Source: the human T2T-CHM13v2.0 reference genome, Homo sapiens
Length of the DNA stretch: 64,000 bases
Direction: 5' to 3' (one strand)
Assembly (NCBI RefSeq): GCF_009914755.1
Contig: NC_060943.1
The stretch's first letter is position 1; each line of letters starts with the position of its first letter. A program made the position numbers and the translations under genes. Shown in pieces: positions 37,989-39,756 of the stretch. The notes beneath the pieces are model-generated. The model made no database searches, was not told the DNA's origin, and was given only the letters and a program-made list of their open reading frames with translations.

Positions 37989-38162
37989 GGCAATAGTGGT
38001 TTGGAATGGAGACTGCACGCACCAGTCAACAGGGTGTGTCCCGAATAAGCAGTGGGTAAAGGACATTTACTGAAATGCTATCTCCAACTCCACTTCAGGA
38101 AAGCTTGCTGCAGAGTTAGAGTGATATAGTCCAAATGCTCTGTTTGAGTCGCGGGCCCTTTG
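37989..38162. repeat. Left arm of a 174-bp inverted repeat (partner 39583-39756)
   Basis: Manual alignment: 7 mismatches in 174 nt, no gaps. Confidence 0.95.
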
Positions 38163-38900
38163 TCTCACACGGGCGAGTCCGGGGAATTCTGGGAAGTGGA
38201 GTCCACACGCTCTGTGGAGGCTCGAGCACTTCCGGTCCCCAACTGTGACGTTGCTATTTCATTTACCACAGTAGTTTGAGTCATTTCCACATCTTGCGAG
38301 TCCTTCCGAACGAGTCTCCTTTCCTTGGGGCTCGCAACCACCCAATGATCGATTCAGGAGAAAAGAAGCCTGGGCGGAGAGCAGAGGTTTGGAGGGGCGC
38401 GGGCGGGGATTGCCGTTCCAGTCAGCTGAGCCTTCTGGCGTCGGGGGGCTCTGCTAGGGTCTCAGGGAGTGGGATTGGCGCGGCCCGGTGTGCCCTACTT
38501 TGACCTCGCTTAGTCCGCCTCCCTCCTCCCTACGTGTGCAGCCCCTTTCAGTGTGGTGTGGAGTGTCACTTAATGTCCGTTTATCTTCCATTGCTGGTTC
38601 GTTTGTTTGTTTGTTTTGTAACGGGACTTTTCGGACCATCCTAATGGATTCATTTTGGGACCTGAAAGAGGTAACACAAATGAGAGCCTTAAAAGCAGTC
38701 CCTGTCACTCGGTGTCTGGTGGTCTCTTGTTAATTTCCCACGAAGCCTGTCAGGTCCTCTGGTGGGGTCAGAGCTCCAGCTGCAGGGGCGCCGGCCCTTC
38801 TGCCTAATCCCTGCAGGACGCTGGATGATCCCTGACGCCTTCTGACCTCTTTTTAGGAAAGTGAGGGGAGCATTTAACTTTTATGGGGGACGGCAAAACG
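38127..38900 (+). promoter_or_regulatory. ZNF222: CpG-rich promoter and exon 1 region of ZNF222
   Basis: Paralogous to 15760-16560; SBS-like ttctgggaagtggagtcc near 38187-38204 and ETS acttccgg near 38228-38235. Confidence 0.85.
38345..38386 (+). CDS. ZNF222: ZNF222 exon 1 coding segment (MIDSGEKKPGRRAE)
   Basis: ATG plus 13 codons ending phase 0 at GAG/GTTTGG; gives 491 aa when spliced to the downstream exons. Confidence 0.8.
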
Positions 38901-38979
38901 GTCAGGGTGTTTCACAGCTTTCTTTTTCCCCAGCCCGACCTTTCTAAAAGAGCTGCAGGAAGGGACTTCTTGGCTACTG

Positions 38980-38994
38980 ATGGCAAAGCTCTAC
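38980..38994 (+). CDS. ZNF222: ZNF222 alternative first coding segment (MAKLY), exon ~38934-38994
   Basis: ATG GCA AAG CTC TAC then GTGAGT; pyrimidine tract and cag at 38933; matches my recollection of a MAKLYEAVTF N-terminus. Confidence 0.7.
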
Positions 38995-39429
38995 GTGAGT
39001 GATCCTTGGCTTTTTTTCTTTGACAGAGATGCTTACCTCAACCGAGAGTGTGTAGGATTTGTCCCTCGGGCATGGGTGTCGATAATGATTAAGCCTTAAT
39101 TGGTAACTTTATTCCAAGTACTTTATACCCCAAAATACATGATCTCCACAGTGGCACTGTGGAGAGGTGCTGCTTTTTTCATTTTAAAGATGGGCGTGAG
39201 ACAGGTGGAGCAGGAGTTGAAACCTAGGCAGTCCAGGTTAGAGCCTGAGTTGATCATCTCTTGAATGCAATTCTCATTGAGGCAGAGGTACTAGCTGGGA
39301 ACAGGTGGAGAACGTAAGTTAGGACTTGATTGAAGGCACCTTGAGGCAAGGCTCAGGGGCTTGGACTTCTATAGGAGTTTTTGTTTGTTTGCTTTTTGCT
39401 TTTTAATTTTTTTAACCTTATCTACTATT

Positions 39430-39573
39430 TTCTTTCTCTCTCTCTCTATATATATATATATTTTTTTTTTTACAGAGTTTCGCTCTTGTTGCTTAGGCTG
39501 GAGTGCAGTGGTGCAATCTTGGCTCACTGTAACCTCCGCCTCCCGGGTTCAAGTGATTCTCCTGCCTCAGTCT
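39430..39573 (-). mobile_element. Truncated antisense Alu (part of right arm) with (CT)n(TA)n(T)n tail
   Basis: Alu match stops abruptly at cctgcctcagtctc. Confidence 0.88.
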
Positions 39574-39582
39574 CATTTTCGT

Positions 39583-39756
39583 CAAAGGGCCCGCGACTCA
39601 AACAGAGCATTTGGACTATATCACTCTAACTCTGCAGCAAGCTTTCCTGAAGTGGAGTTAGAGATAGCATCTCAGTAAATGTCCTTTACCCACTATTTAT
39701 TCAGGACACACCCTGTTGACTGGTGTGTGCAGTCTCCATTCCAAACCCCTATTGCC
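39583..39756. repeat. Right arm of the 174-bp inverted repeat
   Basis: Reverse complement of 37989-38162. Confidence 0.95.

What the first reader, a model, noticed from the sequence alone, without database searches (positions are those of the whole stretch)
37989..39756. ZNF222 promoter and exon 1 are bracketed by a 174-bp, 96%-identical inverted repeat that sits at a deletion junction
Seen: 39583-39756 is the reverse complement of 37989-38162 (7 mismatches; the inner ~77 nt are identical). The right arm lies exactly between a broken Alu (ends ~39573) and the point where homology with ZNF230 (~21567) and ZNF155 (~4280) resumes, so ~4.5 kb of ZNF230-equivalent sequence including the MTTFK exon is missing here. 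The copied segment also spans the older junction at ~38126, which orders the events. Inference: a replication template-switch (FoSTeS/MMBIR-type) deletion with a templated inverted insertion. It leaves a 1.4-kb cassette (promoter, exon 1, alternative exon) that could invert by recombination and switch ZNF222 off or redirect the promoter.
Basis: partly seen in the sequence, partly recalled or inferred. Interest (0 to 1): 0.8.

Follow-up and report, generated by a model that had tools for sequence, protein, structure and literature searches.

The report
Old inverted copy at ZNF222 deletion scar
The ZNF222 promoter really is flanked by a 174-base inverted repeat, but it looks like the fixed scar of an old copying error that deleted the gene's original start exon, not a working genetic switch.

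Summary
Arms 37989-38162 and 39583-39756 are 174 nt long, differ at 7 positions and lie 1420 nt apart. The genome holds only one other copy, an 81% paralogue.

The left arm is the source, because it sits in ancestral context on both sides. The right arm is a derived inverted copy. It lies between a 5'-truncated Alu plus 8 unexplained bases and the point (39758) where paralogue homology resumes.

All seven other units compared keep non-repeat sequence across the ZNF230 stretch 17056-21568. All nine paralogous genes keep the five-codon start exon. ZNF222 has neither and is nested inside their tree. So this is a ZNF222-specific deletion.

Arm divergence puts the copy at very roughly 20 Myr (95% range 8-44). 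The Alu is older.

- **Mechanism:** a DNA template switch is the best fit. Its defining microhomology was not found, and a two-step history is not excluded.
- **Inversion switch:** no evidence supports it.
- **Extras:** ZNF222 regained a start codon through a private G-to-T change in a conserved 5'UTR exon. ZNF284 carries an independent 161-nt inverted templated insertion in the same intron.

The parts
37989..38162 (.). Left arm, the source copy of the inverted repeat. It overlaps most of ZNF222-DT exon 1 (38023-38190, minus strand) and that exon's GT splice donor (38021-38022 read on the minus strand).
   Evidence: It is contiguous with ancestral homology on both sides: 37462-38119 matches 53355-54008 at 80%, and the promoter block of the paralogues starts at about 38133-38151.
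38120..38132 (.). Upstream junction. Homology with the ZNF222-ZNF223 intergenic region ends here and the shared promoter block begins. About 10.8 kb equivalent to window 54009-64856 is absent. The junction cuts the upstream one of two tandem units of about 75 nt that head the paralogues' promoters.
38163..39582 (+). The 1420-nt stretch between the arms. It holds the bidirectional promoter, the ZNF222-DT start (38190, minus strand), ZNF222 exon 1 (38287-38386, ATG at 38345), the alternative exon, an AT-rich tract, the truncated Alu and the filler.
   Evidence: 38151-39382 is homologous to the promoter blocks of 8 paralogues.
38934..38994 (+). Alternative exon carrying the replacement start codon (ATG 38980-38982, peptide MAKLY). 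The exon and its splice sites are conserved in the paralogues as 5'UTR. The T at 38981 is private to ZNF222.
   Evidence: 0 of 6 aligned paralogues have ATG here (five read AGG, ZNF234 reads AAA). Identity is 78-92%.
39383..39471 (.). Low-complexity T-rich, TC and TA tract. It includes the tail (a T run on the + strand) of the minus-oriented Alu. Alignable paralogue homology ends at 39382.
39472..39574 (-). 5'-truncated Alu. Only the 3' part of about 103 nt plus the tail remains. Its break is the left edge of the deletion and insertion junction.
   Evidence: One search aligns it with 4 intact Alus as they stand. One search gives a star-branch length of 0.066-0.080, about three times the per-arm divergence of the repeat.
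39575..39582 (.). 8-nt filler of unknown origin between the Alu break and the inverted copy.
   Evidence: No other template was found in the window with up to 3 mismatches.
39583..39756 (.). Right arm, the derived inverted copy. It lies in ZNF222 intron 1, 170 nt upstream of the KRAB-A exon. It reproduces the upstream junction. It also carries the ZNF222-DT exon-1 body with its GT donor (39723-39724) in the sense orientation of ZNF222.
   Evidence: It is 96% identical to the left arm but 83% to the 53878-54008 paralogue. Its flanks have no ancestral continuity.
39757..39758 (.). Return point. One ambiguous base (T, 39757) is followed by resumption of the sequence shared with ZNF224, ZNF284, ZNF155, ZNF223, ZNF230 and ZNF221.
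   Evidence: (alignment with 6 paralogues).
39927..40053 (+). KRAB-A exon, the first ancestral coding exon that ZNF222 retains.

Best explanation
This is a fixed, old structural scar on the ZNF222 lineage, not an active device.

Shown:
- The ancestral gene had the layout of its nine paralogues: promoter and exon 1, several kb of intron holding a five-codon start exon (MTTFK-like), then the KRAB-A exon.
- An Alu had inserted just downstream of the promoter block.
- ZNF222 later lost everything from the middle of that Alu to a point 170 nt upstream of KRAB-A.
- In its place there are 8 unexplained bases and a 174-nt reverse-complement copy of a stretch lying 1.4 kb upstream, which stayed in place.

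Inferred:
- Because the source was kept, the insert was made by DNA synthesis.
- The most likely route is one replication or repair template-switch event. In the four-point notation the strand leaves at 39574, copies 38162 back to 37989 on the opposite strand, and returns at 39757.
- The gene survived because a pre-existing conserved 5'UTR exon acquired an ATG by a G-to-T change, and because an ATG in exon 1 reads in frame into KRAB-A.
- The repeat itself probably does nothing today.
For: - **Copy direction:** the left arm is continuous with ancestral homology on both sides, and the right arm on neither. The arms are 96% alike, against 81-83% to the only other copy in the genome.
- **Deletion on the ZNF222 lineage:** the gap between the promoter block and the KRAB-A block is 380 bp in ZNF222, against 4.5-12 kb in ZNF230, ZNF155, ZNF284 and ZNF221.
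- 7 of 7 other units share non-repeat blocks with ZNF230 17056-21568, and ZNF222 shares none.
- 9 of 9 paralogous genes keep the start exon.
- ZNF222 is nested in a ZNF155/230/223 clade with 100/99 support.
- **Timing:** 7 differences in 174 nt give 0.021 per arm, against a ZNF222 terminal branch of 0.09-0.12. That places the event in about the last fifth of the branch.
- **The Alu predates the copy:** its star-branch length is 0.066-0.080 (Fisher P = 0.009-0.022).
- **Local precedent:** ZNF284 has a 161-nt, 95% inverted templated insertion in the same intron. One of its joins has about 3 nt of overlap, and it lacks a retro-insertion layout.
- **Start-codon replacement:**
- **Known kind of event:** reverse-oriented template switches that leave inverted repeats are described for great-ape genomes (PMC7954356, abstract and Introduction part 1 read).
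Against: - No microhomology is visible at either join. There are 8 filler bases at one and one ambiguous base at the other. Microhomology is the defining mark of FoSTeS/MMBIR (PMC2583991 passages).
- The pre-deletion ZNF222 sequence is unknown, so the joins cannot be read fully.
- Nothing shows that the deletion and the insertion happened together.
- The published short-range template-switch model looks for templates within tens to hundreds of nucleotides (PMC7954356 Introduction). Here the template is 1.4 kb away and the return jump exceeds 3 kb.
- No other primate genome could be examined. Age and fixation therefore rest on 7 substitutions and an assumed rate (95% range 8-44 Myr at 1e-9 per site per year).
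Confidence: 0.6

Rival explanations
1. Two separate events. First, an inverted templated insertion with little or no loss, as in ZNF284, landed just upstream of 39757. It may have been longer than 174 nt. Later, an ordinary end-joining deletion ran from the Alu into that insert, trimmed it and left 8 filler bases.
For: ZNF284 shows that such insertions occur in this very intron with only about 10-20 nt lost. The 8-nt filler and the lack of microhomology at the left join fit end joining (NHEJ features in PMC2583991 passages). The inner end of the copy (38162) marks nothing in the source, as expected if it was cut later. ZNF222 carries another large deletion just upstream, so large losses are not rare here.
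Against: It needs two rare events plus a deletion breakpoint that happens to fall inside a short insert. Nothing in the human sequence separates the two steps.
Confidence: 0.25
2. A one-step retrotransposition accident. An Alu insertion deleted the target DNA, and the reverse transcriptase jumped after about 103 nt of Alu onto a nearby + sense template covering 37989-38162.
For: The + strand reads T tail, then reverse-complement Alu truncated at its 5' side, then the extra sequence. That is the layout of a 5'-truncated insertion lying directly at a deletion. Alu retrotransposition-mediated deletion is a described class (recalled; only papers that hold the phrase were seen, as a search listing).
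Against: The Alu fragment is about three times more diverged than each arm of the repeat. Its star branch is 0.066-0.080 against 0.021 (P about 0.01-0.02), so it looks older than the copy. No + strand transcript over 37989-38162 is annotated. The similar ZNF284 insert does not have a retro-insertion layout.
Confidence: 0.07
3. The repeat is a working or polymorphic inversion cassette. Recombination between the arms flips 38163-39582, swapping which side of the bidirectional promoter drives the ZNF222 coding exons.
For: The geometry allows it. The arms bracket both transcription starts. The right arm repeats the ZNF222-DT exon-1 body and donor, so a flip would rebuild that exon in front of KRAB-A. 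The two arms are close together, and recombination on matches shorter than 50 bp has been reported for closely spaced repeats (PMC2583991 passage).
Against: The longest identical run is 77 nt, and the run is not significant evidence of exchange (P = 0.12). Every RefSeq transcript of ZNF222 and ZNF222-DT fits the present orientation. One long-read study reported no inversion among 87 structural variants in the surrounding 2 Mb. No human recombinase is known to act on such sites (established knowledge).
Confidence: 0.03

Closest known systems
Replication-based complex rearrangements (FoSTeS / MMBIR): a deletion with a templated, inverted insertion at the join
   Same: The inserted stretch is copied from nearby DNA in reverse orientation and the source is kept. 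A copy-number loss sits at the same junction. The breakpoint lies in a repeat next to an AT-rich tract.
   Different: The 2-5 nt microhomology that defines the model (PMC2583991 passages) is not seen; there is 8-nt and 1-nt filler instead. This is an old fixed event inferred from paralogues, not a sequenced new mutation.
Short-range template-switch mutations (four-point model; Walker et al. 2021, PMC7954356, which cites Loytynoja and Goldman)
   Same: The event can be written with four points (1 = 39574, 2 = 38162, 3 = 37989, 4 = 39757). It creates an inverted repeat in the descendant, as that model describes.
   Different: That model searches for templates within tens to hundreds of nucleotides and explains small mutation clusters. 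Here the copied piece is 174 nt, the template lies 1.4 kb behind, and the return point skips more than 3 kb.
Alu retrotransposition-mediated deletion
   Same: A 5'-truncated Alu with an intact tail lies directly against a deleted target stretch.
   Different: There are 174 nt of non-Alu inverted local sequence at the join, and the Alu appears older than that copy.
Invertible promoter switches of bacteria (fim and hin type) and inversions mediated by inverted repeats in humans
   Same: A promoter-bearing segment lies between inverted repeats.
   Different: There is no dedicated recombinase, no second orientation has been observed, and the arms are short and 4% diverged.

Membership tests
FoSTeS/MMBIR-type template-switch rearrangement | The junction contains sequence templated from a nearby locus, here in inverted orientation, and the source is retained | tested here: met
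   a 174-nt reverse complement of a stretch 1.4 kb upstream, with both copies present.
FoSTeS/MMBIR-type template-switch rearrangement | A copy-number change (deletion) at the same junction | tested here: met
   ZNF222 alone lacks the stretch kept by 7 of 7 other units and the start exon kept by 9 of 9 paralogous genes.
FoSTeS/MMBIR-type template-switch rearrangement | Microhomology of 2-5 nt at each join point (PMC2583991 passages) | tested here: inconclusive
   Join 1 has an 8-nt filler with no template found. Join 2 has one ambiguous base and 0-1 nt of overlap.
FoSTeS/MMBIR-type template-switch rearrangement | All joins arose in one event | not testable with these tools
   This needs other primate genomes, and none is reachable here.
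Four-point short-range template-switch mutation | The descendant is explained by three ordered fragments: L to 1, 2 to 3 (reverse complement), 4 to R | tested here: met
   apart from the 8 + 1 unexplained bases.
Four-point short-range template-switch mutation | The template lies within tens to hundreds of nucleotides of the switch (PMC7954356 Introduction) | tested here: not met
   The template is 1.4 kb away and the return point skips at least 3 kb.
Alu retrotransposition-mediated deletion | The element's insertion and the deletion are simultaneous | tested here: not met
   The Alu star branch is 0.066-0.080 against 0.021 per arm, P about 0.01-0.02. This is moderate evidence only, from a 103-nt piece.
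Recombination-driven invertible promoter cassette | Inverted repeats flank the promoter | tested here: met
Recombination-driven invertible promoter cassette | Uninterrupted identity long enough for efficient homologous recombination (134-232 bp in cell culture, 300-500 bp in meiosis; PMC2583991 passages) | tested here: not met
   The longest identical run is 77 nt.
Recombination-driven invertible promoter cassette | Both orientations exist in cells or populations | not testable with these tools
   Reads and other assemblies are closed. Indirect evidence: all annotated transcripts fit one orientation, and no inversion was listed in one long-read study of the region.

The most novel reading that the evidence does not exclude
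The 1.4-kb promoter segment still flips at low frequency, in the germline or in somatic cells, by recombination between the arms. Because the right arm repeats the ZNF222-DT exon-1 body and splice donor, a flip would cleanly exchange first exons. ZNF222's KRAB and zinc-finger exons would then be driven by the divergent-transcript side without either of the replacement start codons. A weaker version is that this gene cluster has a local tendency to make inverted templated insertions in intron 1, since ZNF222 and ZNF284 each have one of similar age.
Probability: 0.04. Interest if true: 0.7.

Novelty: new member of a known kind. Interest (0 to 1): 0.3.

Why it matters
- It is a cleanly reconstructed example of how the 5' end of a KRAB zinc-finger gene was remodelled. 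The ancestral start exon was lost in a complex deletion, and translation was rescued by a single-base change in an existing 5'UTR exon and by an exon-1 ATG.
- It explains why ZNF222 is the most compact gene of its cluster and why its N-terminus differs from all nine paralogues.
- Together with the ZNF284 case, it gives two paralogous, datable templated inverted insertions of 160-175 nt. This size class lies between the short template-switch clusters and the large rearrangements usually studied.
- It has no demonstrated present-day function.

Tried and rejected
- **Dispersed repeat or transposon ends.** Rejected. There are only 3 copies in the genome, the arms are not masked, and the internal segment is the ordinary promoter block of the family.
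- **Right arm as the original.** Rejected on flank continuity.
- **An insertion in the other paralogues instead of a deletion in ZNF222.** Rejected, because ZNF222 is nested in the tree and the missing stretch holds a conserved coding exon.
- **Gene conversion between the arms** (the inner 77 identical bases). The post-hoc 'all 7 in the outer 97' test gives 0.017. The proper test, longest run anywhere, gives P = 0.12. No evidence.
- **Polarising the differences.** With the 53878-54008 copy as outgroup, 5 changes fall on the left arm and 2 on the right. This is uninformative.
- **A third template for the 8-nt filler.** None was found in the window with up to 3 mismatches; the one match is the site itself, and 0.72 matches are expected by chance. 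MAFFT placed the filler against a stretch further inside intact Alus, but 8 nt is too short to support any reading.
- **The upstream inverted Alu (pair I2) as the homology used for the switch.** Rejected on geometry. It would copy sequence left of 37331, not 38162-37989.
- **Known RNA families in 37400-40300.** None at gathering score.
- **Dating through primate ZNF222 proteins.** Two searches with the zinc-finger exon, whole and residues 1-98, returned no protein named ZNF222. The first listed the best 120 of 3497 proteins; the second returned 1 of 1. Respectively 1629 and 8 candidates of untold source were left out. This stays unchecked, and the third search was not spent.
- **Literature.** 'ZNF222' is held by 44 papers. 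I saw the listing of 25, and none is about this structure. The Shannon et al. cluster paper was not reached; one citing passage was seen. I found no paper on this repeat in those two searches.
- **Supplements are closed.** The structural-variant table of PMC12287753 and the event list of PMC7954356 could bear on the inversion and template-switch claims.
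Full report
**1. The observation**

The repeat finder gives arms 37989-38162 and 39583-39756: 174 nt, 96% complementary, 1420 nt apart. BLAST of the window against itself gives the same pair with E = 3e-77. The seven mismatches all lie in the outer 97 nt, and the inner 77 nt are identical.

Neither arm is in a masked repeat. 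The whole genome holds only three copies: the two arms and an 81% paralogue at window 53878-54008.

I scanned 234 kb of the cluster (chr19:46,770,001-47,004,000). In it, 111 inverted pairs of at least 100 nt, at least 80% identity and spacer up to 10 kb were found. 109 are masked repeats. This pair is one of the two that are not.

**2. Which arm is the copy**

The left arm lies in ancestral context.
- Its outer part continues the 80% homology between 37462-38119 and 53355-54008. That is part of a collinear match between the ZNF230-ZNF222 and ZNF222-ZNF223 intergenic regions (31049-38119 against 48245-54008).
- Its inner end runs into the promoter block shared with eight paralogues (38151-39382 by BLAST, from about 38133 by alignment).

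The right arm has no such continuity.
- On its left is a minus-oriented Alu that keeps only its tail and about 103 nt of its 3' part and breaks at 39574, followed by 8 unexplained bases.
- On its right, after one ambiguous base, the sequence shared with ZNF224, ZNF284, ZNF155, ZNF223, ZNF230 and ZNF221 resumes at 39758.
- The right arm is 96% identical to the left arm but 83% to the 53878-54008 copy.

The right arm is therefore a copy of the ZNF222 left arm. It reproduces the upstream junction at about 38120-38132.

**3. The deletion**

The distance between the end of the promoter block and the start of the KRAB-A block is 380 bp in ZNF222. It is 4,513 bp in ZNF230, about 5.3 kb in ZNF155, 7.5 kb in ZNF284 and 12 kb in ZNF221.

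ZNF230 17056-21568 contains non-repeat blocks shared with 7 of 7 other units examined (ZNF221, 155, 223, 284, 224, 225, 234). None is shared with ZNF222.

That stretch holds the five-codon start exon, which is annotated in 9 of 9 paralogous genes (MTTFK, MTMSK, MTMFK, MTTLK, MNMFK). ZNF222 proteins instead start MAKLY or MIDSGEKKPGRRAE.

On the promoter block, ZNF222 is nested in a clade with ZNF155, ZNF230 and ZNF223 (support 100/99). On the KRAB-A block it falls inside an eight-gene group (94/93) with ZNF234 and ZNF226 outside. The loss is therefore on the ZNF222 branch.

**4. The upstream junction**

Compared with the ZNF223 unit, ZNF222 also lacks about 10.8 kb (54009-64856). Part of that stretch (60174-64865) is shared with the upstream regions of ZNF155 and ZNF230, so it is ancestral.

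The junction cuts the upstream one of two tandem units of about 75 nt that open the promoters of the paralogues. From memory, and untested, the conserved core of these units resembles the ZNF143-type promoter motif.

The copy contains this junction, so the junction formed before the copy or in the same event. A nascent strand copying itself could do the latter. 'Older' therefore means only 'not later'.

**5. Timing**

Seven differences in 174 nt give a corrected distance of 0.041, or 0.021 per arm. At 1e-9 per site per year (an assumed rate, from general knowledge) that is about 21 Myr, with a 95% range of 8-44 Myr.

The ZNF222 terminal branch is 0.09-0.12, so the event falls in about its last fifth.

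The Alu piece was compared as it stands with 59 other Alu segments of the region. Its star-branch length is 0.080 over all sites and 0.066 with CpG sites masked, close to the median of the set. That is about three times the per-arm value (Fisher P = 0.009-0.022). The Alu seems to have been there long before it was broken.

**6. Mechanism**

Because the source stayed in place, the insert was made by synthesis on the opposite strand.

The simplest account is one template-switch event. The strand leaves at 39574, copies 38162 back to 37989, and returns at 39757. This matches the four-point description of reverse-oriented template switches that create inverted repeats (PMC7954356, abstract and Introduction part 1 read). 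It also matches the 'FoSTeS x 2' complex deletion of Gu, Zhang and Lupski (PMC2583991, passages).

Against the strict label:
- The microhomology that defines FoSTeS/MMBIR is not visible. Eight filler bases at one join have no template in the window, and the other join has at most one base of overlap.
- The distances are far larger than in the short-range model.

A two-step history, an insertion later trimmed by an ordinary deletion, cannot be excluded. I give it 0.25.

A one-step Alu insertion-mediated deletion with reverse-transcriptase jumping fits the layout. It is disfavoured by the Alu's greater age and by the lack of an annotated + strand transcript over the source. I give it 0.07.

**7. 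A second case**

The only other non-repeat inverted pair in the 234 kb lies in the same intron of ZNF284. Its arms are at window-equivalent 90297-90457 and 93491-93651 (L007 6297-6457 and 9491-9651): 161 nt, 95% complementary, spacer 3033 nt.
- Here the downstream arm is ancestral. All paralogous copies lie on the opposite strand to the upstream arm.
- The upstream arm is the insert. It replaces only about 10-20 nt, starts at a join with about 3 nt of overlap, and ends in a copy of an Alu tail.
- Its layout is not that of a retro-insertion.

So DNA-templated inverted insertions of this size have happened at least twice in this gene family, once with and once without a large deletion.

**8. How the gene survived**

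Exon 38934-38994 is 78-92% identical to the matching stretch of six paralogues, splice sites included. It is annotated as a non-coding exon in ZNF225 and ZNF234.

Its ATG (38980-38982) exists only in ZNF222. Five paralogues read AGG and ZNF234 reads AAA, so 0 of 6 have ATG. A private G-to-T change at 38981 made a start codon 15 nt before the donor, the same coding length as the lost exon.

The exon-1 ATG (38345) is shared with ZNF230 and ZNF223. In ZNF222 it reads in frame into KRAB-A when exon 1 is spliced directly to it.

**9. The switch idea**

Nothing supports it.
- The longest identical run (77 nt) is below the lengths quoted for efficient recombination, although close repeats can recombine on less.
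- The run is not significant evidence of exchange between the arms (P = 0.12).
- All RefSeq models of ZNF222 and ZNF222-DT fit the present orientation.
- A long-read study of GRCh38 chr19:43-45 Mb listed 42 deletions, 43 insertions and 2 break ends among 87 variants, and no inversion (PMC12287753 section 3.4). That ZNF222 lies in that interval is my recollection, and its supplement could not be read.
- No annotated transcript spans both arms. ZNF222-DT RNA and the ZNF222 intron carry the same sense of the repeat, so no RNA duplex is expected.
- No Rfam family matches.

**10. Verdict**

The structural reading is well supported, the mechanism label is plausible but unproven, and the functional switch is unsupported.

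This is a new, well-resolved member of a known class of mutation, with a neat start-codon replacement attached. It is of modest interest unless inverted molecules are found.

Noticed in passing
L007:6297-6457 and L007:9491-9651 (chr19:46,900,297-46,900,457 and 46,903,491-46,903,651; ZNF284 intron upstream of KRAB-A): A second non-repeat inverted pair (161 nt, 95%, spacer 3033 nt). The upstream arm is a derived inverted copy of ancestral sequence 3 kb downstream. It was inserted with only about 10-20 nt lost, has about 3 nt of overlap at one join, and ends in a copied Alu tail. It is independent of the ZNF222 event and of similar divergence (5.0% against 4.0%).
   Followed up: yes
window 38980-38982 (T at 38981), exon 38934-38994: The MAKLY start codon of ZNF222 is a private G-to-T change in an exon that is conserved (78-92%) and non-coding in the paralogues. 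None of the 6 aligned paralogues has ATG there.
   Followed up: yes
window 38120-38132; compare 54009-64856: ZNF222 also lacks about 10.8 kb of ancestral upstream sequence that the ZNF223 unit keeps. The junction truncates the first of two tandem promoter units of about 75 nt shared by the paralogues. The core of these units resembles a ZNF143-type motif (recalled, untested).
   Followed up: partly
window 39472-39724: The antisense Alu supplies a T tract and an AG (39474-39475). The right arm supplies a sense-oriented copy of the ZNF222-DT exon-1 donor (GT at 39723-39724). Together they could define a 247-nt cryptic exon (39476-39722), which would shift the frame. It is not annotated, and no RNA data were available.
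   Followed up: no
window 37331-37418 and 39487-39574: The broken Alu and the full Alu at 37129-37486 form a second, outer inverted pair (88 nt, 88%). Before the deletion this would have been a full inverted Alu pair about 2 kb apart around the promoter.
   Followed up: partly
window 38345-38386: The exon-1 ATG is shared with ZNF230 and ZNF223. ZNF222 lacks 7 nt just after it compared with those two. In ZNF222 it gives an in-frame MIDSGEKKPGRRAE leader when exon 1 is spliced straight to KRAB-A.
   Followed up: partly
protein searches with window 44723-45931: No protein named ZNF222 from any species was returned. The best hits were primate ZNF230 and ZNF223 entries at 76-79% identity. Many candidates of untold source were left out, so orthologue N-termini could not be used for dating.
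   Followed up: partly
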